Assembly: GCA_016188825.1 (NCBI GenBank)
Contig: JACPHA010000011.1
Location: forward strand, 80,317 to 144,316
From: Candidatus Pacearchaeota archaeon
GTDB taxonomy: Archaea > Nanobdellota > Nanobdellia > Pacearchaeales > GW2011-AR1
Direction: 5' to 3'
Length of the DNA stretch: 64,000 nucleotides
The first letter of the stretch is position 1. Each line of letters starts with the position of its first letter. Below the pieces are notes generated by a model. That model saw only the letters and a program-made list of their open reading frames with translations, was not told where the DNA came from and made no database searches. A program made the translations under genes and the position numbers. Of the stretch, positions 1 to 53,856 are shown piece by piece.

Positions 1-2268
1 AGGTTTAACTCGAATTCTGGAAAGAGAATTTTTTCTATTGACACGCCACCGCCAACGCTGTCTGGAAAAATGCACATGGGGCATGCTTTTTCTTATTCGC
101 AGGAGGATTTTATTGCACGATATAAGAGAATGTCAGGGTTTGAGGTTTTTTATCCTTTCGGAACCGATGATAATGGTTTGCCTACCGAAAGATTGATTGA
201 GAAACTGAAAAATGTTAAGAGCAAATTGATGCCGAGGCATGAATTTGTTGAATTGTGCTTGAGAACATTAGAGGAAGTAACTCCGGGGTTTGTTCATGAT
301 TGGAAAAGTCTTGGGATAAGCTGTGATTACGGAATTTATTATTCAACAATTGGCGAAAACTCTAGAAGAATTTCGCAGAAATCTTTTTTAGAGCTATATG
401 AGAAAGGATTGATTTATAAGGAAGATTTTCCTACCATTTATTGTCCTGAATGCCAGACACCGATTGCGCAGGCAGAACTGGAAGATAAGCAAAAAAGTAC
501 ATTTTTTAGCACATTGAGATTTAAAGTTGGCCGGGAAGATTTGCCGATTGCAACTACGAGGCCGGAATTGCTGGGGGCCTGCGTTGCAGTTTTTGTAAAT
601 CCGCAAGATAAAAGATATAAGGAATTTGTTAGGAAAAAGGCAAGAGTGCCGTTGTTTGAGCATGAAGTTCCAATTATGGCGGACGAATCTGCAAATGTAG
701 AAAAGGGAACAGGAGTTTTGATGGTTTGTTCTTACGGCGATAAGTACGATGTTGACGCAATTAAAAGACATAAATTAGAGCCGAGAGTGATTTTTAATAA
801 TAATGGAACTTTGAAAATTGAGCCCTATGAGGGTTTGAGCATAAAGAAAGCAAGGGAGAAAATTTTAGAGGATTTGAAAGTAAAGAAATTGATAATTGAA
901 CAAAAGGAAATTGAACATAGCGTGAATGTGCATGATAAATGCGGGACTGAAATAGAATTTCTGCCTGTTGAGCAATGGTTTGTTAAGATTCTAGATAAAA
1001 AAAGCGAGTTGATAAAGCAAGGGAAGAAGATAAATTGGATGCCGAAACATATGTTTAAGCGATATGAGAATTGGATTAAGGGTTTAGAGTGGGACTGGTC
1101 TATTTCTAGAGACAGATATTTTGGTGTTCCAATCCCGATTTGGAGCTGCAAGAAATGTAAAGAGATAATTCTAGCCGACGAAAGTGAACTGCCCGTTGAT
1201 CCAATTAATGTGAAAAAATTTTGCAAAAAATGTAAAAAGGAAGCAGAGCCGGAGAGAAAGGTTTTAGATACTTGGGCAACATCTTCATTGACGCCGCAAA
1301 TAACTGCTTCTTTAGTTGGAAATAGAGTCAGGATTCCTTTTTCTTTGAGACCGCAGGCGCACGATATAATTAGAACGTGGGCTTTTTACACTATTGTTAA
1401 ATCTTATTTACATGAAAATGAAGTTCCATGGAATAATATTGCCATTTCTGGTTTTTTGACTTTGCAGGGAGAGAAAATGTCAAAGAGCAAGGGAAACGTT
1501 GTTGCGCCGCAGAGAATTATTAATAGCTATGGCGCAGATTCTTTAAGATATTTGTCTGCATCTTCTAAACTTGGGGAGGATAGAGATTTTATTGAAGCTG
1601 ATGTTGTTGCTGGAAAAAAATTTGTCACAAAAATATTAAATGCGGCAAATTTTGTTTTTATGAATTTAGAATATCAGGAAAAAATGCCTGCGAAACTTGT
1701 CGAAACAGACAGATTGTTTTTGACAAGATTGAATAATTTAATTGCCGATGTTACAGAAGCTTTTGAGAATTATGATTATGCAAGGGCAAAAATAGAGACA
1801 GATAATTTCTTTTGGAAGGTTTTTGCAGATAATTATCTGGAAATTGTCAAGGGCAGGGTTTACAATGGCAATGAGGAAGAAAAGGCTTCTGCTTTCTATG
1901 CTTTGTATCAGGGATTATTGGTAATTTTGAAGTTAATTGCTCCCATAACGCCGTTTGTTGCAGAAGAGATTTATCAGAAACATTTTAGAAAATACGAGGA
2001 GGGGAATTCAATACATTTGGAAAAATGGCCGAAAAAAATTGGAGTAAGGGAATTAAGACACGATGAAAAAGTTTGGGACAAATTTATTGAGATAATTGCT
2101 AAGGTCAGACAGGCAAAATCAGAGTCAAAGAAGGCGATGAATTCTTCTGTTTTTTTGGCAATCACTAGAGAGGAGATGAAAGAACTGAAAGATGTTTTAG
2201 CTGATTTGAAATCAGTTACGAACGCGAAGGAAATTAAGGAAGGGAAGTTTGATGTGAGAGTTTCGTGA
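1..2268 (+). CDS. valS: Valyl-tRNA synthetase (class I aaRS), 5' end truncated by window edge
   Basis: Frame is open from base 1 (..IDTPPPTLSGKMHMGHAFSY: PPPT-SG and HMGH class I signature typical of archaeal ValRS); KMSKS motif (KMSKSKGN); 732+ aa. Confidence 0.7.
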   Translation, partial: RFNSNSGKRIFSIDTPPPTLSGKMHMGHAFSYSQEDFIARYKRMSGFEVFYPFGTDDNGLPTERLIEKLKNVKSKLMPRHEFVELCLRTLEEVTPGFVHDWKSLGISCDYGIYYSTIGENSRRISQKSFLELYEKGLIYKEDFPTIYCPECQTPIAQAELEDKQKSTFFSTLRFKVGREDLPIATTRPELLGACVAVFVNPQDKRYKEFVRKKARVPLFEHEVPIMADESANVEKGTGVLMVCSYGDKYDVDAIKRHKLEPRVIFNNNGTLKIEPYEGLSIKKAREKILEDLKVKKLIIEQKEIEHSVNVHDKCGTEIEFLPVEQWFVKILDKKSELIKQGKKINWMPKHMFKRYENWIKGLEWDWSISRDRYFGVPIPIWSCKKCKEIILADESELPVDPINVKKFCKKCKKEAEPERKVLDTWATSSLTPQITASLVGNRVRIPFSLRPQAHDIIRTWAFYTIVKSYLHENEVPWNNIAISGFLTLQGEKMSKSKGNVVAPQRIINSYGADSLRYLSASSKLGEDRDFIEADVVAGKKFVTKILNAANFVFMNLEYQEKMPAKLVETDRLFLTRLNNLIADVTEAFENYDYARAKIETDNFFWKVFADNYLEIVKGRVYNGNEEEKASAFYALYQGLLVILKLIAPITPFVAEEIYQKHFRKYEEGNSIHLEKWPKKIGVRELRHDEKVWDKFIEIIAKVRQAKSESKKAMNSSVFLAITREEMKELKDVLADLKSVTNAKEIKEGKFDVRVS

Positions 2269-2633: not shown

Positions 2634-2858
2634 ATGAATATGAAAAGAATAGTAATTGACGGAAGAATAAGACACGGAAAGCCGATAATAGAAGGAACAA
2701 GAATTTCAGTAGAGGACGTATTGGAAATGCTCGAAAGCGGCATGAGTTATGAAGAAATTGAAGAAGAGTATGGTTTGACTAAAGAAGATATTTTGGCTGT
2801 TATAAAATATGTTGCATCACTTTTACGTGGGGAAGAAGTTCATGAGTTGTCAAATTAA
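2634..2858 (+). CDS. DUF433-family small protein (antitoxin-like)
   Basis: 74 aa; GKPIIEGTRISVEDVLEML..GMSYEEI motif pattern of DUF433; immediately followed by DUF5615-like gene. Confidence 0.5.
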   Translation: MNMKRIVIDGRIRHGKPIIEGTRISVEDVLEMLESGMSYEEIEEEYGLTKEDILAVIKYVASLLRGEEVHELSN

Positions 2859-2860
2859 AA

Positions 2861-3220
2861 ATGAGATTTTTATTAGATGAGAATATTCCTCTTTCTATAC
2901 TTAATCTATTAAAAAATCTTGGGCACTCTGTTAAGCATATAAAAAATATTTTTCTATATAGCAAGTCTGATAAGGAAATATCTGAATATGCAAAAAATAA
3001 AAAAGCAATTTTAATTACTAGAGATTTGGAATTCGGTAGCACCATATTGTATCCAAAAAATTCACATTACGGCGTGATTGTTTTACGCTTACCTTACTAT
3101 TTTAATGCAGAACAAATTTCAAAGTCACTAAAGGAGTTTATTAGTTCCGTAGATAACAAAGATATGACAGGCAATCTTGTTATACTGGAGCTAAATAGAT
3201 ATAGAATAAAAAAACTTTAA
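2861..3220 (+). CDS. DUF5615/PIN-like small protein (toxin-like partner of DUF433)
   Basis: 119 aa, starts MRFLLDENIP (acidic N-terminal PIN-like motif), 3-bp spacing after upstream gene. Confidence 0.45.
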   Translation: MRFLLDENIPLSILNLLKNLGHSVKHIKNIFLYSKSDKEISEYAKNKKAILITRDLEFGSTILYPKNSHYGVIVLRLPYYFNAEQISKSLKEFISSVDNKDMTGNLVILELNRYRIKKL

Positions 3221-3335: not shown

Positions 3336-4862
3336 ATGAACGAGAAAGAAATAATCGAGAAGAAGAAGAAACAGGAACTTGAGGAATTGATTGAGATACT
3401 TGGAAATATAAAAGGAAGACATACGGAGCTTGTTAGTGTGTTAGTGCCTGCTGGTTATAATATTAATTCTGTTACAAGACAGCTGGAGAGCGAGAAGTCT
3501 ACTGCTGCGAATATTAAATCAAAGCAGACAAGGAAAGCAGTTACAGACGCGCTTGAAAGAATAATAAGAGAATTAAAAGGAATGAAGGAAACTCCTCAAA
3601 ATGGACTCGCAATTTATTGCGGGAATATTTCACAAAAAGAAGGAGAAGTTGATATACGACTTTGGGTTTATGAACCTCTTAAACCATTGAATGTCAGGAC
3701 ATATAGATGTGATCAGGAATTTGTTATTGAGCCATTGAGAGAGATGGTTGCTGTAGACGAGGTTTATGGTTTGCTTGTGATTGACAGACAGCAGGCAACG
3801 ATTGGTTTGCTCGAGGGAAACAACATAAAAGTTTTGCAGAGATTGACTTCTGGAGTTCCAGGGAAGGTAAGGGCGGGAGGACAATGCTTGTCGCCGGATG
3901 CACTCCTTGTTAAAAAAAATAAAGGAGAAATTAAATTAGAGGAAGTTAAGAAAGGAGATTTATTGGAAGGAATAAATTTTGATACAATGAAAAAAACATT
4001 TAATAAATGCATTAATAAGTGGTCAGTTAATAAAAAAGAAAGTTTATTAATAATTACGAATGGCGAATTTCCCTCTTCGCATATTGACTGCTCTATAGAT
4101 CACACTTTTTATGTTTATAATAAAAACAAAGTTGCGAAGAGAATTGCCTCGCGTTTGAAGGTGGGCGACTTTTTTATTGGAGTGGAGGGTAAATTAATTA
4201 AAATATTATCTATAGATAAAGCAGCATCTGGTCGACAGTTAATAGATATTGAAGTTGAGAATAAAAACTTTTTTGCAAATGGACTTTTAGTGCACAATTC
4301 ATCTCAGCGTTTTCATAGAATTACGGAGGGGTTAGCAAAAGAATTTTATAGGAGAGTTGCGGATGATATGAAAAGGCATTTTTTTGACATGCCTAAGCTA
4401 AAGGGAATTTTGATTGGGGGGCCAATACCAACAAAAGAGGATTTTCTTGCAGAAGGAAATTTAGTTACAAAGCTGAAAGAAAAGGTTATTTCGATAAAGG
4501 ATCTGGGCTATGTTGATGAGCACGGCTTAGAGTTATTAGTTGAAGATTCTCGGGATGAAATTAAAGAGCAGGAATTAATTAGAGAGAAAAATTTTGTGAC
4601 AAAGTTTTTCGAAATTTTGGGCAAGGACAGCAAGATGGCTGTTTACGGTTATGAGAAAGTTAGAATTGCTTTACAAAGAGGAGCTGTTGCACTTTTACTT
4701 ATTTCAAAGGGTTTTGACAGACAGAAATCACAAGAGCTTGAAAAAATGGCTGAAAATATAAGTTCAGAGGTAATTTTAATAAGCGAAAATCATCATGACG
4801 GAGAGCAATTTTATCATTTGACAAAAGGTGTTGGAGCAATATTGAGGTTTGGGCTGGAATAG
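3336..4862 (+). CDS. prf1: Peptide chain release factor aRF1 interrupted by a mini-intein
   Basis: 508 aa; aRF1 N-domain, GGQ motif at aa 181-183 immediately followed by Cys-initiated insert ending HN|S, then SQRFHR continuation. Confidence 0.8.
   Translation: MNEKEIIEKKKKQELEELIEILGNIKGRHTELVSVLVPAGYNINSVTRQLESEKSTAANIKSKQTRKAVTDALERIIRELKGMKETPQNGLAIYCGNISQKEGEVDIRLWVYEPLKPLNVRTYRCDQEFVIEPLREMVAVDEVYGLLVIDRQQATIGLLEGNNIKVLQRLTSGVPGKVRAGGQCLSPDALLVKKNKGEIKLEEVKKGDLLEGINFDTMKKTFNKCINKWSVNKKESLLIITNGEFPSSHIDCSIDHTFYVYNKNKVAKRIASRLKVGDFFIGVEGKLIKILSIDKAASGRQLIDIEVENKNFFANGLLVHNSSQRFHRITEGLAKEFYRRVADDMKRHFFDMPKLKGILIGGPIPTKEDFLAEGNLVTKLKEKVISIKDLGYVDEHGLELLVEDSRDEIKEQELIREKNFVTKFFEILGKDSKMAVYGYEKVRIALQRGAVALLLISKGFDRQKSQELEKMAENISSEVILISENHHDGEQFYHLTKGVGAILRFGLE
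3885..4298 (+). other. Mini-intein (138 aa, Hint domain only, no homing endonuclease) inserted directly after the GGQ motif of aRF1
   Basis: Insert starts CLSPDALL (block A), internal T/S-x-x-H, ends NGLLVHN followed by +1 Ser; host protein without it reads GGQ|SQRFHR as in standard aRF1. Confidence 0.75.
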
Positions 4863-4910
4863 TTTTATTAGAACAACAAACAATATAAATGTGTTTTTTT
4901 ATGATATTGC

Positions 4911-6947
4911 ATGGATGGAGTTGAATTAAAACCGAGGCAGAAACTGAAGCAGGAAGATTTGATCTTGGAGGCGAAGAATTTTTTTGATGCGCACAAGAAA
5001 GAGATAGGGGAGTCGATAAGGAAAGAGGGAGGGACTGTTAAGCTGTTTTTTCCGCAGCTTGCTGCTTATTCTCCCTTGCTCTCGGAAAATTTGATTGAGC
5101 TGCCCGAAGAAACTTTAGCGATTCATGAGCTTGCTTTGGAGGAATTGGAGCTAACGAAGAAACCAAGGGTCAGGGTTTTTGATTTGCCGAAGAGCTGTTT
5201 TATTAAAATTCGAGCGATAAGAGCGAAGCATCTTGATAGATTGGTTTGGATTGAGGGAATTGTTCGACAGGCATCCGATGTTAGGCCACAAGTAGTAAAT
5301 GCAAAATTTGAATGCCCGAATTGCGGAGCGATTTTGTCTGTTTTGCAAATAGAGAGAAAGTTTAGAGAGCCGTCGAGATGTTCATGCGGGTGGAAGGGTA
5401 ATTTTAAACAGTTATTAAAGGAGATGGTTGATGCACAGAGGCTTGTGATAGAAGAGTCTCCAGACTCGCTTGAGGGAGGAGAGCAGCCAAGAAGAATTAA
5501 TACTTTTTTAAAAGAGGATTTGGTTGATCCTAGAATGGAGATTAGAACCACGCCAGGAAGCAAAGTAAGAGTTTATGGAGTTTTAAAAGAAGTGCCAGTT
5601 CCGTTGCAAACAGGAGCAATTTCTACAAGGTTTGATATCGCTATAGAAGCAAATAATATTATTCCGATGGAAGAATCTTTCGAGGAGATTGAAATGAGCG
5701 AGGAAGATGAAAGGCAGATAAAAGAGCTTGCGAGCCATCCTGAAGTTTTCAGTAAACTTTCTAAAAGCATTTCGCCGAGCATTTATGGTTTTGATTTGAT
5801 AAAAGAGGCAGTTTTGCTGCAACTTTTTGGAGGGGTTAAAAAAATAAAATCTGATGGCGGATTGGCAAGGGGAGATATTCATATTTTGCTTGTTGGAGAT
5901 CCCGGAGTTGCAAAGTCTGTTTTGCTGAAATATGTTTCGGGCATTGCGCCTAAGGGAAGGTATGTTTCTGGGAAAGCGGCGACGGCGGCGGGATTAACTG
6001 CCGCAGTAGTCAAAGATGAATTTTTACGCGGCTGGGGTTTGGAAGCAGGTGCGATGGTTTTGTCTAATAAAGGAGTTGTTTGTATTGATGAAATTGAAAA
6101 AATGGAGGAGCACGATAGAAGCACGATGCACGAGGCAATGGAACAGCAAAGTATTTCCATATCTAAGGCAAGCATTCAGGCAACTTTAAGAGCAGAAACA
6201 ACTGTTTTAGCTGCCGGGAATCCGAAGCTGGGGAGGTTTGATCCTTACACACCGATTCCGCAACAAATTGATATTTCCCCCGCGCTATTGACAAGATTTG
6301 ATGTTATTTTTGTTATAAGAGATTTGCCAAATAAAATACAAGATGAAGCAATTGCCTCGCATGTTTTGGATGAGCATAAACAAAAGATGGATAGATATAT
6401 TGTTGAACCTGGCTTGATGCGAAAATATATTTCTTATGTCAGACAAAAAATTAAACCTAAATTGACAGATGGAGCAATAGAAGAAATTAAGAATTTTTAT
6501 ATTAGACTGCGGTCGCAGCCTGGCAGGGCTGATTCTGAGATAAAGCCGATTCCTATTACTGCGAGACAATTAGAAGGTATTATAAGACTCAGCGAGGCGC
6601 ATGCAAAGATAAGGCTCAGCGATGAGGTTACAAGAGAAGACGCAAAGGCGGCAATTAAACTTTTGAAAACTTCATTGATGCAAGTGGGCTATGACGAGGA
6701 AACAAAGTCTTTTGATATTGATAGAATCACAACAGGAATAAGTTCCTCGAAAAGAGGAAAAATACTTCTTGTCAGAGAAACTTTGTCAAAACTTGAGTCA
6801 CAATTAGGAAAATTGATTCCAATTGAAGAAATACAAAAAGCTCTTCAGGGAAATTTGTCAGATGCAGAGCTGGAAGAAGCTCTCGAACAATTGTCGAAGG
6901 CGGGGGATATTTTCAAACCAAAGAAAGGATTTGTACAGAGACTTTGA
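4911..6947 (+). CDS. mcm: MCM replicative helicase
   Basis: 678 aa; Zn finger CPNCG..CSCG, Walker A GDPGVAKS, Walker B/arginine finger region, S-T-A...GNPK; no intein. Confidence 0.85.
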   Translation: MDGVELKPRQKLKQEDLILEAKNFFDAHKKEIGESIRKEGGTVKLFFPQLAAYSPLLSENLIELPEETLAIHELALEELELTKKPRVRVFDLPKSCFIKIRAIRAKHLDRLVWIEGIVRQASDVRPQVVNAKFECPNCGAILSVLQIERKFREPSRCSCGWKGNFKQLLKEMVDAQRLVIEESPDSLEGGEQPRRINTFLKEDLVDPRMEIRTTPGSKVRVYGVLKEVPVPLQTGAISTRFDIAIEANNIIPMEESFEEIEMSEEDERQIKELASHPEVFSKLSKSISPSIYGFDLIKEAVLLQLFGGVKKIKSDGGLARGDIHILLVGDPGVAKSVLLKYVSGIAPKGRYVSGKAATAAGLTAAVVKDEFLRGWGLEAGAMVLSNKGVVCIDEIEKMEEHDRSTMHEAMEQQSISISKASIQATLRAETTVLAAGNPKLGRFDPYTPIPQQIDISPALLTRFDVIFVIRDLPNKIQDEAIASHVLDEHKQKMDRYIVEPGLMRKYISYVRQKIKPKLTDGAIEEIKNFYIRLRSQPGRADSEIKPIPITARQLEGIIRLSEAHAKIRLSDEVTREDAKAAIKLLKTSLMQVGYDEETKSFDIDRITTGISSSKRGKILLVRETLSKLESQLGKLIPIEEIQKALQGNLSDAELEEALEQLSKAGDIFKPKKGFVQRL

Positions 6948-11268: not shown

Positions 11269-11346
11269 AAAATTTGGATAAGGAGCAATTGGCAGAGCAT
11301 ATGGCTGTTAACCATAGGGTCAGAGGTTCGAGTCCTCTCCGGGACG
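11236..11346 (+). tRNA. tRNA-Asn(GUU) with a ~38-nt intron in the D-loop (non-canonical position, about 11251-11288)
   Basis: 5' exon gtcccgg-ta-gctc-ag; 3' exon ttggca-gagc-a-tatgg-ctGTTaa-ccata-gggtc-agagg-ttcgagt-cctct-ccgggac-g; acceptor stems pair perfectly only across the insert. Confidence 0.55.
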
Positions 11347-25080: not shown

Positions 25081-28000
25081 TTAGGAAGGCATTAAAATAA
25101 ATGTCAAATTTGTACTTTTTGTTAAATTCAACGATTGCGTTCCTGTCACATAATCGACTTTGCTTGCATTAATAGTATAGTTTGTCTGATATGTTCTTGC
25201 AGAACCATTTACAGTATATTCTGTAACATTCTGCCTTACAATGTTTCCTGATGAGTTTGTTGTTATATTATGTGTTAATCCTCCAGTGTTGTTGTAAAAT
25301 AAAACTCTTGCTCCGCTTAATGAGTTATTTAAGTGGTCTTGAACACGAACATCGACGTACCATTGTTTGTAGAGAGTGCCGTTTATGACATTGTGTGTGG
25401 AATGGTTTGTATTTATTAAGTAAATTTCTTGATTGCTTGAAACGACTACATTTTCTAGATTAGAGCCGGAGATGTTAGAATCGATTATTTTGATGTTACT
25501 ACAAAAAGTACAGTAAATATTAAAATCAGTGACAGTACCTCCTCCTAAGTTTCCCAAAAATTTAGAGCGAATAATAGAAATATTTGAAGACAAGAGTTCT
25601 AAATCTGATACTTCTGCATTACTTAAAGTATTATTTTCGAATATAACATTTGATGTATTTATAGCTAGACCTCTTTTTAGATTGGCGGTTGTACTGCCTG
25701 CGTAACTAACATATGAATTCTTTAATATGAATTCTGAGCCAGTTAAAACTTGAAATTCGTGTCTAAAGGTATTGGATCTAGTTATGTTTGAATAGTTGGC
25801 TGAGAGATTTCCTGAGACATAAATACTATTTTCTGCATCTCCGATAGAGTTATTCATCTCCAAAGTACAACTTTCCATAATTAGTTTTCCTGTGGAAGTT
25901 ACATTAATATCAGCAGTGCTGACATATCTGCAAGGTCTAGAAGAGTCTGAAAGATTGTTAAAAACTTGGGCATTATTAACTCTCGTATAAATATCATGTA
26001 AGGTTTCTGTCGTTGTTACTTCTATTACATCGATAATGGGGGAGATTATTTGAAATTGTCTTGTTCCATTAAATCCTGTTGAATTGCCGTCGCTTGCATT
26101 CACATTCCAAAAATAAGTTTGTCCTTGATTTAATTTATATAAATTATCTACTTCTGCTGGTGATAATGTTCTATTCCAGATTCCAACTTCATCAATTACT
26201 CCTAAGAATGTGCCTACTCCAACTTCATCATCTCCAATCCATGTTGTTTCAGTATCTTGCCATGCGGTTATATTAATTGTTTTAAAATTGCAGATTGTTG
26301 AATTTACCGTTGTTATTATATTATTAACGTATAAAGATAAATTTCCAGTTGAATTTTCCCACGTTCCAGTAACCATTCTCCATTCTTCAAGAGTCCAGTT
26401 TTGAGCAGTAACAGAACAAAATGTGCTGTTTCCATTCTCTCCTATATCAAATATAAAACTACCTGGGCTTGAAGTTCTAAATCTAAAAAATCTATTATTT
26501 GTTGTTCCCGAAGTCCCCCATCTTGCTAATATTATATTTCCCGTCCCACTTGTTTTCTTTTTAACCCACATTGAAAAGCTGCATCCATTATTGCATAAAT
26601 CTTTATGGGCGGTTTGATTTAAAATATTAATTCCTATAGAGCCCGTGAAATTATAAGCTCCTCCCAAGATTCCAGAGAAATTATCATATCTTATATTTGC
26701 AGGTTCGCTTGGAGTATCTCCATCAAAATTATGGCTTGAAAAATCATGGATTATTCCTGTTGTTAAACCTTCTCCGCTTTCATTAAATTCTTTTCTATTG
26801 TCAAAATGATACAAGCCCCACATAGTTCCATCATCAATTAATGGCGGAACAGACCAGTTATATGTTTGCTCAATAAAATTAGTCCCATTTCCTCTAAATT
26901 TTTTTCTATTTATTATGCTTTCATCTATTTTTGTTAAATTGGAATTTCCATAAACAATGCTTTCAATTGTATTATTTTCTATATCTCGAACACTCCAATT
27001 TAGCAGCGTATATCTCGTATTTATGATTGAATTATTTGCAGGAGCATTAAGATTAATATTTGGAGGATTTCCGAAAATTCTCGTAAAATTCAATCTTACT
27101 TGAACTTGGTCAACTGCGGCAATTCCTGCTGTGCCACCATTATCTGTAAAATTAAGTCTTACTCCGAACTCTTGATTTGTTAATTCTCTTTTACTCCAAT
27201 TTCTTCCCCAATCATATGTTAAATTTCCGTATATAATTGTTGTTTCTGTGCAACCAAAAGTGTTAATAACTCTTCCTGATGTATAAGAAATATTAGAGCT
27301 TAAATTATAATTTAAATCTACGCCGATATCTGCCTGTCTCCCAGCAGCACAGAAACTTACTGCAGACCTTCCTTCCACGCTTACTTCTATGCCGTGAACA
27401 GTCCATGATTCATCTAAATTTTCTGTTGGTGAGATAAAACTAAAATTATGTGCGTGCATTACTTCGTATAAAGTTGATTCATCAGCTCTTGCATTGTCGG
27501 AGACAAAAGTATTATTACAGTTTGCCCATTGTTGAGTATTTGTGTCGCATGCTGACGGAGATTTATAAGGTGTTATTTCAGGGTCTAATCTTATTGTTAA
27601 ACCATTAAGAAACATAGAATTTTCATTTGTTAAACCTAAAGCGACTATTGAGCCATCGTAATAACCAAAAATGCTACCATTTCCAATATAAATATCTGTA
27701 ATATTAAATCCCGAATTAATTAAATCTCCAAATCTAAACTCATAATCGTAAAAATCAAACTTTGGAATTTTATCATTAAAACTCCCTCTTAAATGAACGG
27801 TTTCATTTTTTCTTAAAGTGCGTTCTTCGTTATCATAAATCAATCTTGTTCCTTCGCTTAACACATTAACATACCAAAATTTTACGTTTGTTAAATTATA
27901 ACCAAAATTATTTGTTATTGAATGCTTTAATTTAGCTGCTTTTTTTGGATGAAATTCTAAAATCTGTGTCCAACGAAAGTTTTGGTGGTTGTTGTAGTTT

Positions 28001-28314
28001 GTTAAAACATCAACAAGATATGAAATATTTGTGGTTTTGTTTATTTGTTCTATTGAAGTGTAATTTGAATAGATAGAATTCCAAATAAAATCTTCAGAAT
28101 TGTAGGTTTTGTTTTCTCTATTTACAACTCCTGTTACGACAAATCTTAGAGACCCTAAGGACTTTCCTTCTTTGTTTATCCCTATTTCCCCAGACGATGT
28201 TAACTGAAAGTTCAAACCATCATTGTGTGTAAATAAATCTTCAGCCCCTACGTCGTAAATTATAATTATAACAAAAAATATTAGGAAAACCCAAACTATT
28301 TTTCCTTTATTCAT
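25081..28314 (-). CDS. Large secreted surface protein (1077 aa) with LamG/ConA-like domain and beta-helix-like repeats, N-glycosylation-sequon rich
   Basis: Signal peptide; LamG-like block (..WGTSGTTNNRFFRFRTS..LYVNN..); many N-x-S/T; shares near-identical segments with the giant gene 31544-40384. Confidence 0.6.
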   Translation of the reverse strand: MNKGKIVWVFLIFFVIIIIYDVGAEDLFTHNDGLNFQLTSSGEIGINKEGKSLGSLRFVVTGVVNRENKTYNSEDFIWNSIYSNYTSIEQINKTTNISYLVDVLTNYNNHQNFRWTQILEFHPKKAAKLKHSITNNFGYNLTNVKFWYVNVLSEGTRLIYDNEERTLRKNETVHLRGSFNDKIPKFDFYDYEFRFGDLINSGFNITDIYIGNGSIFGYYDGSIVALGLTNENSMFLNGLTIRLDPEITPYKSPSACDTNTQQWANCNNTFVSDNARADESTLYEVMHAHNFSFISPTENLDESWTVHGIEVSVEGRSAVSFCAAGRQADIGVDLNYNLSSNISYTSGRVINTFGCTETTIIYGNLTYDWGRNWSKRELTNQEFGVRLNFTDNGGTAGIAAVDQVQVRLNFTRIFGNPPNINLNAPANNSIINTRYTLLNWSVRDIENNTIESIVYGNSNLTKIDESIINRKKFRGNGTNFIEQTYNWSVPPLIDDGTMWGLYHFDNRKEFNESGEGLTTGIIHDFSSHNFDGDTPSEPANIRYDNFSGILGGAYNFTGSIGINILNQTAHKDLCNNGCSFSMWVKKKTSGTGNIILARWGTSGTTNNRFFRFRTSSPGSFIFDIGENGNSTFCSVTAQNWTLEEWRMVTGTWENSTGNLSLYVNNIITTVNSTICNFKTINITAWQDTETTWIGDDEVGVGTFLGVIDEVGIWNRTLSPAEVDNLYKLNQGQTYFWNVNASDGNSTGFNGTRQFQIISPIIDVIEVTTTETLHDIYTRVNNAQVFNNLSDSSRPCRYVSTADINVTSTGKLIMESCTLEMNNSIGDAENSIYVSGNLSANYSNITRSNTFRHEFQVLTGSEFILKNSYVSYAGSTTANLKRGLAINTSNVIFENNTLSNAEVSDLELLSSNISIIRSKFLGNLGGGTVTDFNIYCTFCSNIKIIDSNISGSNLENVVVSSNQEIYLINTNHSTHNVINGTLYKQWYVDVRVQDHLNNSLSGARVLFYNNTGGLTHNITTNSSGNIVRQNVTEYTVNGSARTYQTNYTINASKVDYVTGTQSLNLTKSTNLTFILMPS

Positions 28315-31543: not shown

Positions 31544-34500
31544 TCATTCTTTTAATTTTTTTATCGCTCTCGAGTGTAAAGTCCAGATATTTCTTGGATC
31601 ACGATCTAATATCTTCGCTATTTCTATATTCCTCAGACCTTTTTCTTTCCAATAGTAAACTAAAGATTCTAGGATGCTTAATTTTCTATTACTAAATATT
31701 TCAAGAGGCGCAAATCTCTTTTCTTTTACAATTATTTTTTCTTTCTTCTTCTTAATGGCGTTGTTGTAATTAATCCAGACTGTTCTTTGGTCTCTGTTTA
31801 GTAATCTTGCTATTTCGCTGAATCTCAAACCAAGGTTTTCTTTTAGATACTTGCACAATGCTTCTGCCGCGCCCATTTCTTGAGCAAATATTTCTAGTGG
31901 AATCTTGAGCTCACTTCTTTTTACACTGATTAGTAGCTCATGCAAGCCCAAACCATATTTTTCTTTTAGTAATTCATCTAGACTTGTGCCGTATCTTTCC
32001 TTAAGTTTTTCATCAAGAACTTCGAGAGAATTGTTTTCGCTCAATTCTCCTAATTTCTTCTTTCTTCTTCTTGCTCTTTCGCCTAGAGCAAAGGCGGCGA
32101 GGGCGATTGTTCCCTTGATAAGCCAACTTCCTGCTGTTGAAGTTGAATATATTTGTGAAGATATTGTTGAAGGCACTGTTCTTAAACAATAATAAATTTG
32201 CTCTTGTCCTGTTGAGCCGTCGTTAATAGAATTATTTCCTCTGTTCAGAACAGTGTTTATTATTTGCCGGTCTGTTCCGTTTGTTAGTGTGGTGGCTCCC
32301 GATTGTCCGCATTCTGGGTTTGAAGCTCCAGTATTATTTCCGATACTGAAGTTTGCAATATCTATATAAAACGTAGAGACAGATTCACCATGAAGATTAA
32401 TTGCATTCACAGTTATATTTGTGAAATTGTAATTTCCAGTGTTGTTAATTAAAGTCGGATCATTAGTTGATGTTTGATTTGTTGCTCCAATATTTACGGC
32501 GAAATTAATTTGAGCTGGAGAGATTTTAAGGGATTGTAATTGAACATATGAAAAGTTTGTTGTTGTGTTTATTGCAGATAACCCTTCTACATCTTCTCCA
32601 TAAACAGTTATGTTCCACACTCCGTTTTCATCAAAATACCACATTTGAATTGTGCAGGAATAGTTTGCGCTTGTGGAGTCTATGTCTCCAACCAAAGCAC
32701 AGCTTGTGTTTTGTCTCAACGGTTCTCCAGAACGAGTGAAGTTTGCTTTGACACTTGTGTCAGCTAAATCATTGACACCATCATTATCTTTCATGATAAG
32801 GTAAAAGGTAACATTAGTTGTGCTGCCTTCAGTTGGGGAGATGCTTCCGATAGAAGAAACAGAAGTTATTTGTGGAGCGGTGTTATTAACCGTAAGCTCT
32901 CTTGTTTCAGACTCGTTATTATTTCCTGCAAAATCGGTAACATTGACTTTCCAGAAATATTTTCCTACATTTAGCCTATAAAGATTTTTTATTTCTGTAG
33001 CTGTCAGAGAGCGATTCCAGACAGCAACTTCGTCTATGGTGCCGTTGAAATAACTGTCTGGAATCCCATCACCGTTTCTGCCAATATTTATATAATCAGT
33101 AGAGGAAAGGAAACTAACTGAGGTAGTGGCATTAATAACAAAGGCTCCATCAACATATAATTCTTTTTGCGCGTTATTCTTGAAAACTCCCACTATATGA
33201 TGCCAGTTTCCTCTTAAGTCAGTTGTTCCGCCGACAGAAGTAGAAGTTCCGTTATGTGCTGATATAAGTGCTTGTCCACTGGAATTTATATTTATATGAA
33301 AATATCTGTTTTGTGTACTAGAGTCGGCAAGAGAGACGATTACTCCATTCGTAGTGTCATTTGCCTTTTTTACCCATGCAGAAAATGTAAAAGGATAAGA
33401 GTTTATTCCTGCGTCGGAAACTGCTTGTATATCAGAAACTCCAGCTTGGGTTCCTAATCCTATATAATCATCCACACCATCAAATTCATAGGCGCCGCCG
33501 AATTTTCCTCCTGAAACATTATAGACAGAAGCTGTTGTATTAATAATTTGGTTGGTAGTTGTCCAACTATTAAAAACTGTTCCGTTATTTCCTTTATCAG
33601 AGAAGTCATAAATCTTGCCTCCATAAAATAAAACAACTTGGACGAAGTCTAAACGCGGTACGGCGTTGTTGTCAGAATTGCCTGTATAATTAAGTCTTAC
33701 TCTAAAATTAGCATTTGAAAACTCAGTTGAACTCCATGTTCTTCCCCATGTATTGCCAATGCCCCCGTAATTTATTAGAACATCTGACGAAGATGAAAAA
33801 CTTTCTTCTATTGGTGTGGTATAGCTTGTTCCGTTGTTCCAGCTTAGGGCAACTGCAACACCCGGATTTCCACAGGGTGGGCCTATACAACTTTGTTTTC
33901 CTTCCAAGACAACAAGAATTCCTGTTATGTTTACACCGGAAGGAATGCTAAAACTATAATTACTTGTGTCTAGCATATCTCCTGCCGTGCTTTCATTAGC
34001 GTAATTATCATCGGAGGATTTTACATTTTCTCCAGTCGTCCATTGATTTGAAGGATATCCAGTATCGCTTGGAGATTTTGAGCCGCTATCACTCAAAGAA
34101 GATTCGTTAAATTCTTTCCTGTTATCAAAATGGAACAGGACAAGAGTGTCATTGTCTGGGATTGTAACAGGAGAAGTCCAGTTGTAAGTGAATGATGTTC
34201 CAGAGGAAAAGTTTATATTTTGGTATAGTAAGCCGTGCTTGTAGAAATTAGCTGTTGAAGTTGAATTTACACCGTAAATAGCTACGTCTACAAGGTCATT
34301 GAATTGGTCGGTAACACTTGCGTTTAGTGTTATATTAAAAGTGCCCACATGAAAGACAGAAGTATTGGCCGGGGTGTTTAATGTAATAGAAGGAAATATT
34401 GTATTGTTTATTGTAAACGTGAAATTTCTGCTGCTTGTTAAGTTCACAGAAAGAGAAACTTCTTGATAGCCATATTGACTAGCGTTTATCGTGTAATTTG

Positions 34501-37500
34501 TTTGGTATGTTCTTGCCGTGCCATTAACAGTGTATTCTGTTACGTTTTGTTGGATTATGTTTCCAGAAAAGTTTGTTGTTATGTTGTGTGTTAGCGAGCC
34601 GGTATTGTTGTAAAAAATAACTCTGGCTCCGCTTAATGAGTTATTTAAGTGGTCTTGGACACGAACATCGACGTACCATTCCCTGAATAGCTTTCCACTT
34701 GCCTGAATATTATCATTTGTGTAGTTGGAATTTCGGATTGTTATGTTTCCTGAAGCGACGAAAATGTCCTCAAATTGTGCATCAGAAATATTAGAGTTAA
34801 CAACAATACTATTGTTACTGCCAGAATAAATATTATAGTCGGTTGAAGTGGATGAAGCACCTAAAAATAAAGAATCTTGTATATAAATTCCATTGGCTTG
34901 CAAATCTAAGTTTGCTGTATCTGCTCCCCTGAGAGTATTATTTCTAAATACAACGTTATTTGTGTTTAATGTAAGGCCTCTTCTATTTTTTAGATTAGCA
35001 GATCCTGTGTTTGAGACATATGAATTCAATATAGTCAAGTTGGAGTTTGTAGAAGTATAGAAGTCATATCTAAAGCTTCCAAAGCTAGTGATGTTTGAAT
35101 AATTTGCAGTTAGTCTTCCTCCAATTTCAATATCATATTGACCGCTAACAGTGCTATTCATCTCAAGTGCGCAGCTTTCCAAGATCAAATTGCCCGTAGA
35201 AGTCACATTTATACTTGCTTGGCTTGAATATCTACACGGCCTTGTTCCATCAGAAAGATTATTGAAAACATCACTGTTTCCAACTCTTGTAAAGATATCA
35301 TGTGGTGTTTCGGTCGTTGTTACTTCTATTACATCGATTAACTGCAAAGTTAAAGTTACAATAGAATCAGAAGTTATATTTCTAGAAGTTCCATTTGAGA
35401 CATATCCTGCTTTTGTGGCATTTATAGAATGATTATTTTGGTAAACTTTTCCAGAGCCAGTGTCTTTGTATTGAGTTAAATTCCTGAAAACAGCGCCTGC
35501 AGAATCTGTCAAAGCATTGAAAACAATTGCATTGGAGACGTTTCTGATTGTTACATTTGCGCTTCCTAGTGGTTGCGGAACTGCTCCGGTGTAAACAGAA
35601 ACGTTAACTCTAAACATTCTTTCTAGAGAACCGCCCGCAATTGTATAATTAGATGTATCACTGGAATTTAACAAAACAGTTGTGTTTTCAATGTCAATTC
35701 CGTAGAAGTTTATGTTTGCATCAGTTATGTTTAAAGCATTTCTAATATTTGAGAAGCTGAAGTTACCGTAACTGCCTCTGGGAAACGGATCAATAATTAT
35801 TGATGTAAAGTTGAATTTATTTGCAAAGGCGGGTGTTGTTACATTTCCTCCTGTTAAATTTAATCCTTGAGGAGAATGGATGAAAAAGGAGTATCTCCCA
35901 TCATTGGCAGTTGTGTTGAAAATTATATTACAAGTTGAATTTAGAGTTAGTGTTTCACTTGGAGTTATGTTCAAGTCAATGTTTAAGCCCACGCAGGTTG
36001 TGTAAGCGCTTGTGCACGCATAGCCCTGTTTTGTTGCAATGGCCAATGATTTTAAGTCATCGCAATTTAACGGCTCTACCACTTTTAGCTGGTTATCTGT
36101 AACGATAAACTCCCTTGCTTCTGATTCATTGCTTCTGCTTGTTGAGTCTGTGACATTTACTTTCCAGAAATATTTTCCTGCTTTTAATCTGTAAAGATTT
36201 TTTATTTCGTTTGCTGTCAAAGCTCTATTCCAGACAGCTACTTCATCAATTGTTCCGTTGAAATACAATCCTCCAAAGAGGTCGCCTTCTGCGCCGACCC
36301 TGAATCTGTTTGTTACAAGATTAAAAGTAACGCTTGTTGTTAAATTAGCAACAAAATTTCCATCAACATAAAGCGACTTTCCGGTGTTAGACTCAAAAAC
36401 TCCAACAACATGATGCCAGCCATTTCTTAAATCTATTGTTCCTCCTGCTGACTGCCTTGCTCCGTTGTCTTCTGCTATAATTCTTGCCTGTCCAGAGCCA
36501 TTTATTTCTATTCCATAGAGAGGGTCATCGGCAAAATCACTTCCTAATGAGGCAATTATTCCTTCAGTACTTCCTGTTTTATAAGCCCACCCTGAAAATG
36601 TGAAAGGATAAGCAGCCAAACCTAAATCGGACTCTTGCGTTATCCAGTCATTAACACCGTCAAATTGAACTCCATAGCCAAATTTTCCGCCATCTCTTGA
36701 AGTGTTGTAAACTGCTCCTGAAAATGTTCCGTTGTTATTATTGCCTGAAAAATCATAGGAATAAGTATCGTTTTCTCCTTTTGAAGATAAATTATCAAAA
36801 TGATACAACAATACCAAAGAATTTGAATTATTGCTAACAGGTAAAGCCGTGAAGTTGTAAGTTATTTCTGTGCCGTTTGTAACAGCGAGTTGTTTGTATA
36901 ATAGGTAATTATAGAAGTTTGAAGTTTCTTTTGAGTTTACACCATAAAGCAAAACATCAATTGTATCATTGTCTAAGTCATAAACTGTTGAGTTTAATGT
37001 TATGTTAAAGACATCTATTGCAAATGTAGAATCATTTGTTGGAGTATTAAGTGTTGTGTAGGGATTATTATACAAAGTATAATTAACCTGCGCCCAAATA
37101 GCATCTACTCCTGGATTAAAGCTTCGAGGGCTTTGACAATCGTTGCATGCAACCTGCATTATTCTTAATCTAAAACTTGAGTTTGAAAATTCACTCGCAT
37201 CCCATTCTCTTCCCCATTTGTCTGTTAGTCCTGTTAGAGTATTATTAGCATCTGTACATGTAGTCCATGTGGCTTGTTTTTCTGTTGTATAACTTGTGCC
37301 ATTATTCCAGCTTAAACTGACATTCAACACCGCCTGTCTGTCTATCCCTATGCAACTTGTACCATGCCTTGCTTCTACCTTAACTAAAATACCATTAATT
37401 GTCGCCCCAGCAGGAATGCCGAAACTATAATTACTTGTGTCTAACGCTTCTCCGTTTGTTGTTTCGTTTGCATAATTGTTATCCGAGACTTTAACATTTT

Positions 37501-43373: not shown

Positions 43374-43515
43374 GATCCCGTAGCTTAGCCTGGTCAGAGC
43401 GCCGGTCTTATATGACGTGCGTTTCTTCCTTGCTTAATTTGGGGAAGCAATGCAGAGCTTTATCGAGCAATTCGAAGAAAGCCGGAGGTCGGGAGTTCAA
43501 ATCTCCCCGGGATCA
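43374..43515 (+). tRNA. tRNA-Ile(UAU) with ~67-nt intron at canonical 37/38 position (about 43413-43479)
   Basis: Acceptor gatcccg/cgggatc + A73; D-arm; anticodon stem ccggt/gccgg across the intron with loop c-t-TAT-a; T-arm gggag-ttcaaat-ctccc. Confidence 0.5.
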
Positions 43516-45830: not shown

Positions 45831-45910
45831 AGAAGAAAAATCGCCACCCGTGAAGGGCGGAGAAAGCTAGGCGAAAAGCCCTTAAAGGGCGGAGAAGATA
45901 GAAACCACAT

Positions 45911-45983
45911 GCCCGATTAGTCTAGTGGTCAAGGACGAGGCCCTTTCGCGGCCTAAACCCGGGTTCGAATCCCGGATCGGGCA
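45911..45983 (+). tRNA. tRNA-Glu(UUC), intact, element-borne (diverged from host copy)
   Basis: gcccgat-ta-gtct-agtggtcaa-ggac-g-aggcc-ctTTCgc-ggcct-aaac-ccggg-ttcgaat-cccgg-atcgggc-a. Confidence 0.8.
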
Positions 45984-45991
45984 TTATTATT

Positions 45992-49735: not shown

Positions 49736-49924
49736 TCAATATGTCCTTTTTTCATGATTATAACCTCCCTTCTCTAATTTGTAATAAATAAAGCAAACCC
49801 AAGTGCCGTCTTTTTTTTGTATTGGTTGGGAAGCAAAGAAATCTTTCTCACATTCGTTCATCTTTTTGATGAGCTCAAACTCATTGCTAGCAACTATGGC
49901 AAAGACTCTTGTATCTTTAGGCAT
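49736..49924 (-). CDS. Small protein upstream-overlapping integrase gene
   Basis: 62 aa, overlaps integrase start by 8 bp. Confidence 0.3.
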   Translation of the reverse strand: MPKDTRVFAIVASNEFELIKKMNECEKDFFASQPIQKKDGTWVCFIYYKLEKGGYNHEKRTY

Positions 49925-53761: not shown

Positions 53762-53833
53762 GGCGGTTGTAGTTTAATGGCAGAACGTCAGACTGTGGCT
53801 CTGAAGACGAGGGTCCGATTCCCTCCTACCGCT
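53762..53833 (+). tRNA. tRNA-His(GUG) with genome-encoded G-1
   Basis: g-gcggttg-ta-gttt-aatggca-gaac-g-tcaga-ctGTGgc-tctga-agac-gaggg-tccgatt-ccctc-ctaccgc-t; immediately upstream of hisS. Confidence 0.55.
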
Positions 53834-53856
53834 TTCAGCAAAATCGGAGAAGAAAC

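What the first reader, a model, noticed from the sequence alone, without database searches (positions are those of the whole stretch)
3885..4298. Mini-intein inserted exactly after the catalytic GGQ motif of aRF1
The aRF1 ORF is ~100 aa too long. A 138-aa segment starts with Cys right after GGQ and ends ..NGLLVHN with Ser at +1. Removing it restores the canonical GGQSQRF sequence. It has a Hint domain only, with no endonuclease domain. Inteins in class-1 release factors are rare, and insertion at the peptidyl-tRNA hydrolysis motif means splicing is strictly required for function.
Basis: partly seen in the sequence, partly recalled or inferred. Interest (0 to 1): 0.65.

Follow-up and report, generated by a model that had tools for sequence, protein, structure and literature searches.

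The report
Mini-intein splitting aRF1's GGQ catalytic loop
The archaeal release-factor gene in this window carries a real, probably self-splicing 138-residue mini-intein right after its catalytic GGQ motif; it is a textbook kind of selfish element at an insertion site that I could not find described in papers, although it is common in related DPANN archaea.

Summary
ORF 3336..4862 (+, 508 aa) is aRF1. Codons 3885..4298 form an in-frame 138-aa insert that begins with Cys directly after GGQ and ends in His-Asn, followed by Ser.

Deleting the insert gives KVRAGGQ|SSQRFHR. Forty-six close intein-free relatives have this sequence, and so does an orthologous locus with the same neighbouring genes.

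The insert passes the Pfam intein model. Its predicted structure (pLDDT 95) matches solved inteins at TM 0.8-0.87. All class-1 catalytic positions are invariant across 41 diverged mini-intein relatives: C1, S70-x-x-H73, D121, H137, N138 and Ser+1.

Relatives also carry 430-aa versions at the same codon, with an intact LAGLIDADG endonuclease. Empty, full and mini alleles of one homing site therefore coexist in Pacearchaeota and Woesearchaeota.

The window copy is best read as an old, host-adapted mini-intein that lost its endonuclease and must splice to yield active aRF1. Splicing itself is inferred, not shown.

The claim that such inteins are rare holds only for the papers I could search. At least 190 protein clusters carry an intein at this site.

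Side observation: some relatives have GGW or GGF instead of GGQ at the junction. I cannot explain this.

The parts
3336..3884 (+). N-extein of aRF1 (residues 1-183). It contains domain 1 with the NIKS motif and the first part of domain 2, and ends in the catalytic GGQ; Gln183 is the -1 residue.
   Evidence: TIGR03676 aRF1_eRF1 E 5.6e-110 with best stretch 12-184; Pfam eRF1_1; tblastx window 3414-3884 = L001 303-773.
3885..4298 (+). Class-1 mini-intein of 138 aa (Hint splicing domain only, no homing endonuclease).
   Evidence: Pfam PF14890 at 44.3 bits, above the gathering score of 35.8. The AF2 model has pLDDT 95.2. Foldseek matches the gp41-1 intein (TM 0.81/0.87), NrdJ-1 (0.85) and Npu DnaB (0.83). 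The segment is an exact 414-bp insertion relative to the empty orthologous locus.
3885..3887 (+). Cys1 (block A), the nucleophile for the N-S acyl shift at the Gln183-Cys peptide bond.
   Evidence: TGC codon; invariant in 41 mini-inteins and in all 74 inteins of the first set.
4092..4103 (+). Block B core, S70-I-D-H73 (a Ser variant of the TxxH motif).
   Evidence: S70 and H73 are invariant in the 41-sequence alignment A2, whose mean column identity is 48%.
4185..4199 (+). Short linker (about residues 101-105) at the position where full-length relatives carry a roughly 299-aa LAGLIDADG endonuclease domain.
   Evidence: BLASTP of the insert against P0008: residues 1-101 match 178-275 and residues 105-138 match 575-607. 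The alignment of mini and full inteins shows two LAGLIDADG motifs in the full forms.
4245..4247 (+). Asp121 (block F position 4), within LIDIEVE.
   Evidence: Invariant in alignment A2. Asp rather than Cys at this position argues for class 1 and against class 3.
4293..4298 (+). Block G end: His137-Asn138. The terminal Asn cyclises to release the intein.
   Evidence: CAC AAT; invariant in A2; TIGR01443 intein_Cterm 17.3 bits against a cut-off of 15.6.
4299..4301 (+). Ser+1, the first C-extein residue and the nucleophile for transesterification. It is the native Ser of GGQS.
   Evidence: TCA codon. Intein-free relatives read GGQ-SSQRFHR.
4299..4862 (+). C-extein of aRF1 (the rest of domain 2 and domain 3), including the stop codon.
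   Evidence: Pfam eRF1_2 and eRF1_3; tblastx window 4299-4874 = L001 774-1349.

Best explanation
Window 3885..4298 encodes a canonical class-1 mini-intein inserted between Gln183 of the GGQ motif and the following Ser of the single aRF1 gene found in this window, which comes from a Pacearchaeota-type DPANN archaeon. The gene is translated as a 508-aa precursor. The Hint domain then folds and removes itself in four steps. Cys1 attacks the Gln183 carbonyl (N-S acyl shift). Ser+1 takes over the N-extein (transesterification). Asn138 cyclises and frees the intein. An O-N shift then leaves a normal Gln-Ser peptide bond. The products are a 370-aa aRF1 reading ...KVRAGGQSSQRFHR... and a free 138-aa intein. 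In evolutionary terms it is the endonuclease-less remnant of a LAGLIDADG homing intein that targets the highly conserved DNA encoding GGQSSQRF. The endonuclease domain has been lost and the element is now inherited vertically. It persists because only a codon-exact deletion would leave a working release factor, and because any loss of splicing would inactivate an essential protein. Shown here: the anatomy, the fold, conservation of the catalytic residues, the empty and endonuclease-bearing alleles, and purifying selection. Inferred: that splicing actually occurs, that the precursor is inactive, and the order of evolutionary events.
For: The host is aRF1, and the spliced sequence aligns without a gap through GGQ to solved aRF1 structures. 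The insert scores above the Pfam intein gathering score and above the NCBIfam intein C-terminal cut-off. Its phmmer hits among PDB sequences are Hint and intein chains. The AF2 model has pLDDT 95.2, and Foldseek returns 60 PDB matches at E <= 0.001; all 50 listed are inteins, BIL or hedgehog Hint domains, with TM up to 0.87. C1, S70, H73, D121, H137 and N138 are invariant across 41 mini-inteins that are on average only 43% identical to one another. The +1 Ser is invariant. Against the nearest mini-intein relative with DNA in hand, dN of the intein (0.19) equals dN of the exteins (0.18 and 0.19), so the whole domain is under constraint like the essential host. The 120 best relatives comprise 46 empty sites (GGQSSQRFHR), 41 mini-inteins and 33 full inteins of 430-433 aa with LAGLIDADG motifs, all at the same codon. 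The orthologous empty locus shares the neighbouring MCM (78% identity) and the next gene (59% identity), and the alignment breaks exactly at the insert. The mini form equals the full form minus a 299-aa endonuclease region. Intein GC (30.2%) lies within the window's normal range (34.0 +/- 4.4%), which suggests long residence. No second aRF1 and no other Hint domain occur in the 64 kb.
Against: No experiment or proteomic data shows the spliced product. Block B has Ser where most inteins have Thr. dS is saturated, so dN/dS (about 0.07) is only indicative. Mini and full forms share just 33% identity in the splicing domain, which is little more than the 27-32% to the best-scoring Hint domains in other proteins. 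Descent of this mini-intein from the currently circulating full-length lineage is therefore not demonstrated. Only 64 kb of the genome was searched for a second aRF1. Some relatives have Trp or Phe at the -1 position in place of the catalytic Gln. This shows that I do not fully understand how junction and extein function relate in this family.
Confidence: 0.88

Rival explanations
1. The insert is a degenerate, non-splicing Hint domain. Either it stays in the mature protein as a lineage-specific insertion, or this aRF1 copy is non-functional and another factor terminates translation.
For: Splicing was not observed. Block B carries Ser instead of the usual Thr. Relatives with GGW or GGF at the junction show that the catalytic Gln is not always kept in intein-bearing alleles.
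Against: All six catalytic positions and Ser+1 are invariant over 41 sequences with 48% mean column identity. That conservation would have no cause if splicing were lost. The exteins are under the same constraint as in intein-free orthologues: dN is 0.18-0.19 and identity to empty alleles is 69-76%. From established structural knowledge of eRF1/aRF1 on the ribosome, a 138-aa globular domain at the tip of the GGQ loop would be expected to block entry into the peptidyl-transferase centre. This is inference. No second aRF1 was found in the window.
Confidence: 0.04
2. The element is still mobile. It is a recently acquired mini-intein that spreads by using a homing endonuclease supplied in trans, for example by the full-length aRF1 inteins circulating in the same communities.
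For: Endonuclease-bearing alleles at the same codon are abundant in close relatives: 33 of the 120 best hits. The extein neighbours of the window protein are a mix of full, empty and mini alleles.
Against: The mini and full splicing domains are only 25-45% identical. Mini-inteins are far more diverged from each other (mean 0.43) than full ones are (0.70), which fits old vertical inheritance. Intein GC is within the host range. The intein diverges at the same rate as the exteins in the pair tested. No LAGLIDADG gene or other Hint domain was detected in the window.
Confidence: 0.05
3. The insert is a bacterial-intein-like (BIL) or other Hint domain that only cleaves or rearranges the protein and does not ligate the exteins.
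For: The best PDB sequence and fold matches include BIL domains: 6y75 and 6tmm at E about 1e-6, and 2lwy at TM 0.86. The closest non-aRF1 relatives in the representative library are tandem multi-Hint proteins.
Against: It sits in frame at a conserved catalytic site of an essential housekeeping protein that has empty-site orthologues. It ends in His-Asn followed by the native Ser nucleophile. Its relatives carry a LAGLIDADG homing endonuclease at the standard position. These are the defining features of true inteins and are not typical of BIL domains (established knowledge of the BIL families, not tested further).
Confidence: 0.02

Closest known systems
Class-1 mini-inteins with solved structures (gp41-1, NrdJ-1, Npu/Ssp DnaB mini-inteins)
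   Same: They share the Hint fold (TM 0.81-0.87), a similar size (about 125-150 aa), Cys1, a block B His, a block F Asp, a terminal His-Asn and a +1 nucleophile. They also lack an endonuclease domain.
   Different: The host protein and insertion site differ (aRF1 after GGQ). Sequence identity is only 20-29%. Block B has Ser instead of Thr. The +1 nucleophile is Ser paired with Cys1. Splicing has not been demonstrated for this one.
LAGLIDADG homing inteins of archaeal housekeeping genes (e.g. PI-PfuI/RIR1 and CDC21/MCM inteins; archaeal IF2 listed by Novikova et al. 2016, PMC4760082)
   Same: The full-length aRF1 alleles in relatives have the same architecture: a Hint domain interrupted by a double-LAGLIDADG endonuclease, at a conserved site of an essential information-processing protein. 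Empty, full and mini alleles coexist, as the homing-cycle model expects.
   Different: The window copy has lost the endonuclease. The target is the translation termination factor. Novikova et al. describe the translation and transcription core as containing few inteins, and 'release factor' does not occur in their main text.
Bacterial intein-like (BIL) and other Hint domains (6y75/6tmm BIL2, 2lwy)
   Same: They share the fold and give comparable sequence scores.
   Different: BIL domains are not inserted at conserved sites of essential proteins, have no empty-site orthologues and are not associated with homing endonucleases. The window element has all of these intein hallmarks.

Membership tests
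Intein (class 1) | Hint (hedgehog/intein) fold | tested here: met
   The AF2 model has pLDDT 95.2 and is all-beta. Foldseek against the PDB gives 60 matches at E <= 0.001; all 50 listed are inteins, BIL or hedgehog domains, with TM 0.8-0.87 for the top hits. Pfam PF14890 scores 44.3 bits against a gathering score of 35.8.
Intein (class 1) | Block A: Cys/Ser/Thr nucleophile as first residue | tested here: met
   Cys1 at 3885-3887 is invariant in all 74 inteins of the first set and in alignment A2.
Intein (class 1) | Block B TxxH motif | tested here: met
   The motif is S70-I-D-H73. His is invariant, and Ser is invariant in place of Thr. This is a conservative variant.
Intein (class 1) | Block F Asp and block G penultimate His + terminal Asn | tested here: met
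   D121, H137 and N138 are invariant. TIGR01443 scores 17.3 against a cut-off of 15.6.
Intein (class 1) | +1 Cys/Ser/Thr nucleophile in the C-extein | tested here: met
   Ser at 4299-4301, and all relatives read HN|S.
Intein (class 1) | In-frame insertion at a conserved site of a host protein that has intein-free homologues | tested here: met
   46 empty-site relatives read GGQSSQRFHR. Orthologous locus L001 shows an exact 414-bp difference and shared gene order.
Intein (class 1) | Autocatalytic excision with ligation of the exteins | not testable with these tools
   This needs expression of the precursor or junction peptides from proteomics. It is inferred from residue conservation and the essential role of the host.
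Class 3 intein | WCT triplet (block B Trp, block F Cys, block G Thr), usually with no Cys1/Ser1 nucleophile | tested here: not met
   Block F position 4 is Asp121, not Cys. Cys1 is present. The residue before His-Asn is Val, not Thr.
Mini-intein (no homing endonuclease) | Absence of a LAGLIDADG/HNH/other endonuclease domain between blocks B and F | tested here: met
   The insert is 138 aa. Only Hint-type Pfam hits were found. The 299-aa LAGLIDADG region of P0008 corresponds to 3 residues here.
aRF1 (class-1 release factor, TIGR03676) | Three eRF1 domains, a NIKS-type motif and GGQ after removal of the insert | tested here: met
   TIGR03676 scores 367.9 bits against a cut-off of 234.7. eRF1_1, eRF1_2 and eRF1_3 are all found. 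The spliced sequence matches 4af1 (5.6e-58) and 3agk (2.1e-52) without a gap over VPGK..GGQS.QRF.

The most novel reading that the evidence does not exclude
The intein may be more than a passive parasite. Under this reading it is retained as a post-translational gate on translation termination: active aRF1 would appear only when the Hint domain splices, for example under particular redox, temperature or growth conditions (Cys1 plus the non-invariant Cys42 and Cys69 could form a redox trap). The junction would then co-evolve with the catalytic loop. The Woesearchaeota relatives that have replaced the 'universal' catalytic Gln by Trp or Phe exactly at the -1 position, while keeping an apparently competent intein, could be an extreme outcome of such co-evolution. 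They would also imply release factors that work without GGQ.
Probability: 0.07. Interest if true: 0.75.

Novelty: new member of a known kind. Interest (0 to 1): 0.4.

Why it matters
It adds the translation termination factor, at its peptidyl-tRNA hydrolysis motif, to the list of intein targets. The translation core has been described as intein-poor (PMC4760082).

This site offers empty, endonuclease-bearing and mini alleles side by side in one uncultured lineage. That makes it a natural system for studying the homing cycle in DPANN archaea.

There is also a practical consequence. The intein causes mis-annotation. The window protein is labelled 'hypothetical protein' at NCBI, and relatives are labelled 'LAGLIDADG family homing endonuclease' or 'helix-turn-helix domain-containing protein'. 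An essential marker gene can therefore be scored as missing.

The compact 138-aa Cys1/Ser+1 intein, which tolerates a Gly-Gly-Gln N-extein, could interest protein engineers.

The GGW/GGF junction variants seen in relatives could matter more than the window copy itself, if they prove to be the only aRF1 in those genomes.

Tried and rejected
1. A word-index protein search with the 138-aa intein alone returned nothing, so that search was wasted. The exhaustive phmmer search of the representative library replaced it.

- None returned a paper describing an intein in a class-1 release factor.
- The only intein paper that co-mentions a release factor, the Bodo saltans virus paper, has its inteins in DNA polymerase B and RNA polymerase, not in eRF1.
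- My first guess at the PMC id for Novikova et al. was wrong. Their supplementary tables are not held.

3. I looked for compositional evidence of recent foreign origin and rejected it. Intein GC of 30.2% is below the exteins (36-39%), but 22% of 414-nt windows in this sequence are as low or lower.

4. dN/dS was attempted, but dS is saturated or undefined, so I use only dN.

5. I considered a shifted splice register for the GGW/GGF relatives, with the intein running from W/F to S, which would regenerate GGQ. I rejected it because Gln is not a splicing nucleophile and the spacing to R[FY] would be wrong (reasoning).

6. I searched the window for other inteins and for a second aRF1 and found none. 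I did not use the second structure-prediction job on the whole precursor, because the tool returns no coordinates from which to measure geometry.
Full report
**1. What is in the sequence**

The window holds one long ORF on the + strand, 3336..4862, of 508 aa. It matches the aRF1/eRF1 equivalog TIGR03676 at E 5.6e-110 and 367.9 bits, against a cut-off of 234.7. The match is split into pieces, the first ending at residue 184. Pfam finds eRF1 domains 1, 2 and 3, with domain 2 interrupted.

Reading the DNA gives GGA GGA CAA (Gly-Gly-Gln) ending at 3884. TGC (Cys) follows at 3885-3887. The insert ends GTG CAC AAT (Val-His-Asn) at 4290-4298, and TCA TCT CAG CGT TTT (Ser-Ser-Gln-Arg-Phe) follows from 4299.

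The insert is 414 nt, or 138 codons, in frame. Two details need correcting. The restored motif is GGQSSQRF, not GGQSQRF. The excess length is 138 aa, not about 100.

**2. Is it an intein?**

- **Profile models.** Scored alone, the insert gives Pfam Intein_splicing E 2.1e-11 and 44.3 bits (gathering score 35.8), plus a weaker PT-HINT hit. NCBIfam intein_Cterm scores 17.3 bits against a cut-off of 15.6.
- **Solved structures by sequence.** Only Hint-domain chains are significant: BIL2 6y75/6tmm at about 1e-6 and the gp41-1 intein at 3e-5. The DnaX, NrdJ-1 and CDC21 inteins follow more weakly, at E 0.008-0.015.
- **Predicted structure.** I aligned the insert with 40 mini-intein relatives (alignment A2) and predicted its structure. 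Mean pLDDT is 95.2 and pTM 0.86, with 13 beta strands.
- **Fold search.** Foldseek against the PDB returns 60 matches at E <= 0.001. All 50 listed are inteins, BIL or hedgehog Hint domains. Examples are gp41-1 (TM 0.81/0.87, rmsd 1.9), the C. thermocellum BIL (0.86), NrdJ-1 (0.85), Npu DnaB (0.83) and hedgehog 1at0 (0.83).

**3. Catalytic residues**

Alignment A2 has 41 sequences and a mean column identity of 48%. Its only invariant columns are C1, W46, S70, H73, D121, N128, F129, A131, H137 and N138. Six of these ten map onto the class-1 catalytic set:

| Block | Residue(s) |
|---|---|
| A | Cys1 |
| B | S-x-x-H (Ser in place of the usual Thr) |
| F | Asp121 |
| G | His137-Asn138 |

The +1 residue is Ser in every relative. 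Block F has Asp, not Cys, and Cys1 is present, so this is class 1 and not class 3.

I compared the window gene with its relative P0002 (locus L005). dN is 0.18 in the N-extein, 0.19 in the intein and 0.19 in the C-extein. dS is saturated. The whole Hint domain is therefore as constrained as the essential host protein. A dead insertion would not show this.

**4. Empty site and allelic states**

The 120 best relatives of the whole protein fall into three length classes. All 120 could be parsed at the junction.

| Allele | Count | Size | Junction |
|---|---|---|---|
| Empty | 46 | 364-378 aa protein | ...GGQSSQRFHR... |
| Mini-intein | 41 | 131-144 aa intein | GGQ\|C...HN\|S |
| Full intein | 33 | 430-433 aa intein (one of 501 aa) | GGQ\|C...HN\|S |

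The full forms contain two LAGLIDADG motifs (...YYLGDGN... and ...FFDAEGY...) and a PF14528 hit.

At the DNA level, the window, a mini allele (L005), a full allele (L003) and an empty allele (L001) share the same codon junction. L001 is the orthologous locus. tblastx aligns window 3414-3884 to L001 303-773, and window 4299-4874 to L001 774-1349. The downstream MCM is 78% identical and the next gene 59% identical.

The in-silico spliced protein also aligns without a gap across VPGK..GGQS.QRF to the solved aRF1 structures 4af1 and 3agk/3vmf.

**5. Relation of the mini to the full inteins**

BLASTP of the window insert against P0008 gives two collinear segments. Residues 1-101 match 178-275 (33% identity, E 1e-13). 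Residues 105-138 match 575-607 (53% identity, E 6e-7). The 299-aa endonuclease region therefore corresponds to three residues in the mini form.

| Comparison (splicing-domain columns) | Mean identity |
|---|---|
| Full vs full | 0.70 |
| Mini vs mini | 0.43 |
| Mini vs full | 0.33 |

Extein identity is 0.63-0.68 in all three comparisons.

The closest extein neighbours of the window protein are a mix of full (P0008, 77%), empty (P0038, 76%) and mini (P0005, 75%) alleles. My reading, which is inference, is this. The full-length forms are a comparatively young and homogeneous population that is presumably still homing. The mini forms are old remnants that are inherited vertically and have diverged. 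The low mini-to-full identity means I cannot show that this mini-intein descends from the full lineage seen today.

Intein GC is 30.2%, against 36-39% for the exteins and 34.0 +/- 4.4% for 414-nt windows overall. Because 22% of such windows are as low or lower, composition gives no sign of recent import.

**6. How widespread and how known**

An exhaustive phmmer search of 1.84 billion cluster representatives with the intein alone gave 135 hits at E <= 0.001. Of these, 35 are aRF1 proteins carrying the match at the GGQ position, some with much more diverged exteins. The best-scoring non-aRF1 hits that I scanned are tandem multi-Hint proteins.

A search with a Woesearchaeota relative returned 120 more intein-bearing aRF1 clusters. 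[quoted passage not shown] A single-motif scan of GTDB species representatives found about 30 DPANN genomes with the junction.

At least 190 clusters at 90% identity therefore carry an intein here. IMG already labels some of them 'eRF1/intein/homing endonuclease'. NCBI calls the window protein 'hypothetical protein HYV50_03135 [Candidatus Pacearchaeota archaeon]', and calls others 'LAGLIDADG family homing endonuclease' or 'helix-turn-helix domain-containing protein'.

In ten literature searches I found no paper describing an intein in aRF1/eRF1. The broad survey by Novikova et al. states that the core transcription and translation components contain few inteins, and 'release factor' does not occur in its main text. 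Its supplementary tables were not available to me.

My verdict on novelty is a new member, at a new insertion site, of a thoroughly known kind of element. The site is visible in databases but apparently not described.

**7. Mechanism and rivals**

The best explanation (confidence 0.88) is a splicing-competent class-1 mini-intein. Its removal is needed to make active aRF1, and it persists because only an exact deletion is tolerated.

Three rivals were considered:

- **A non-splicing retained Hint domain (0.04).** The invariant catalytic residues contradict this.
- **A still-mobile element using an endonuclease in trans (0.05).** Deep divergence, host-like composition and equal dN in intein and exteins speak against this.
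- **A BIL-type cleaving domain (0.02).** The insertion context, the His-Asn|Ser end and the endonuclease-bearing relatives contradict this.

That the precursor is inactive follows from established knowledge that the GGQ loop must reach the peptidyl-transferase centre. It was not tested.

**8. Side observation: GGW/GGF at the junction**

Several relatives carry the intein at the same codon, but the -1 residue, the Gln of GGQ, is Trp or Phe.

- P0136 reads VGGF|C. The codon is TTT, and the CDS is identical in two independent samples.
- P0126, P0275, P0283, P0305 and P0353 read VGGW|C.
- GTDB loci L015, L016, L019 and L026 read GGW|C. The first three have 142-144-aa mini-inteins.
- The more distant P0151 and P0154 read GGF|C.

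In the sequences I examined, these keep Cys1, His-Asn and Ser+1. Block B Ser/His is visible in the three mini-inteins printed. A NIKS-like motif and the YxCDxxF motif are visible in the four proteins aligned. All are followed by S-Q-[QM]-R-[YF].

Canonical splicing would give GGW-S or GGF-S, a release factor without the catalytic Gln. I could not determine whether these genomes have another aRF1. This observation does not concern the window copy, which has GGQ. It is the most unexpected thing I saw.

**9. Context in the window**

The surrounding genes are ordinary DPANN chromosome content:

- a class-I aminoacyl-tRNA synthetase (70..2268)
- a DUF433/DUF5615 PIN-like pair (2634..3220) directly upstream of aRF1
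- an intein-free MCM (4911..6947) directly downstream
- FtsZ, an amidase, HisRS and an Obg-like GTPase

Window GC is 33.9%.

Noticed in passing
Related loci L007 1443-3818, L008 311-2686, L009 10001-12175, L015 1958-3481, L016 1964-3484, L019 1961-3487, L026 1964-4324; proteins P0126, P0136, P0151, P0154, P0275, P0283, P0305, P0353: These aRF1 genes have an intein at the same codon, but the catalytic Gln of GGQ (the -1 residue) is Trp or Phe: VGGW|C, VGGF|C, KGGF|C or AGGF|C, always followed by HN|SQ[QM]R[YF]. In the sequences examined, the intein catalytic residues and the other aRF1 motifs are intact. The TTT codon was verified in two independent samples. Canonical splicing would yield a release factor without GGQ. 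Whether these genomes hold a second aRF1 is unknown.
   Followed up: partly
Proteins P0041, P0256, P0295 (archaeon GW2011_AR20) and many others (860-915 aa): A subclass of full-length aRF1 inteins is about 500 aa long. Besides LAGLIDADG_3 it carries an XRE-type HTH_3 domain (PF01381), which lies inside the intein (in P0041 the intein is 501 aa rather than 431). NCBI names several of these aRF1 proteins 'helix-turn-helix domain-containing protein' or 'LAGLIDADG family homing endonuclease'.
   Followed up: partly
window 4911-6947 (+) versus locus L005 11647-13515 and L006 6823-8691: The MCM gene directly downstream of aRF1 in the window is intein-free (678 aa). The MCM of the close relative that carries P0002 is 1127 aa, with an Intein_splicing + LAGLIDADG_3 insertion in the AAA domain. 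A second homing site is therefore polymorphic in this lineage.
   Followed up: no
window 3336-4862: The identical protein is deposited at NCBI as 'hypothetical protein HYV50_03135 [Candidatus Pacearchaeota archaeon]'. The intein seems to have prevented it from being named aRF1.
   Followed up: partly
window 43374-43515 (+): Rfam tRNA match of 142 nt (55.3 bits) covering the whole model. ARAGORN missed it. It is most likely an intron-containing archaeal tRNA.
   Followed up: no
window 11282-11341 (+): Borderline Rfam tRNA match (29.7 bits against a gathering score of 29) of only 60 nt. It could be a degenerate or unusual tRNA, or a chance hit.
   Followed up: no
window 2634-3220 (+); also L003 4672-5892 and 8417-9525: A DUF433 / DUF5615 (PIN-like) pair, presumably toxin-antitoxin, sits immediately upstream of aRF1. 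In the relative with the full-length intein, the aRF1 gene is flanked on both sides by toxin-antitoxin modules (MazE/PemK, ParE, HicB-like, VapB/PIN).
   Followed up: no
window 31544-40384 (-): A giant ORF of 2946 aa, not examined. Window 25081-28314 (-) encodes a 1077-aa protein with a Laminin_G_3 domain. Both are probably large surface proteins.
   Followed up: no
window 49917-51326 (-): A 469-aa ORF with a weak Phage_integrase (tyrosine recombinase) match lies between tRNA-Glu (45910-45984) and tRNA-His (53762-53834). It may mark an integrated element.
   Followed up: no
Proteins P0123, P0125, P0131, P0132, P0135, P0141, P0147, P0152: In the 1.84-billion-protein library, the closest relatives of the intein outside aRF1 are proteins built from two or three tandem Hint/PT-HINT domains, rather than inteins in other housekeeping genes.
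   Followed up: partly
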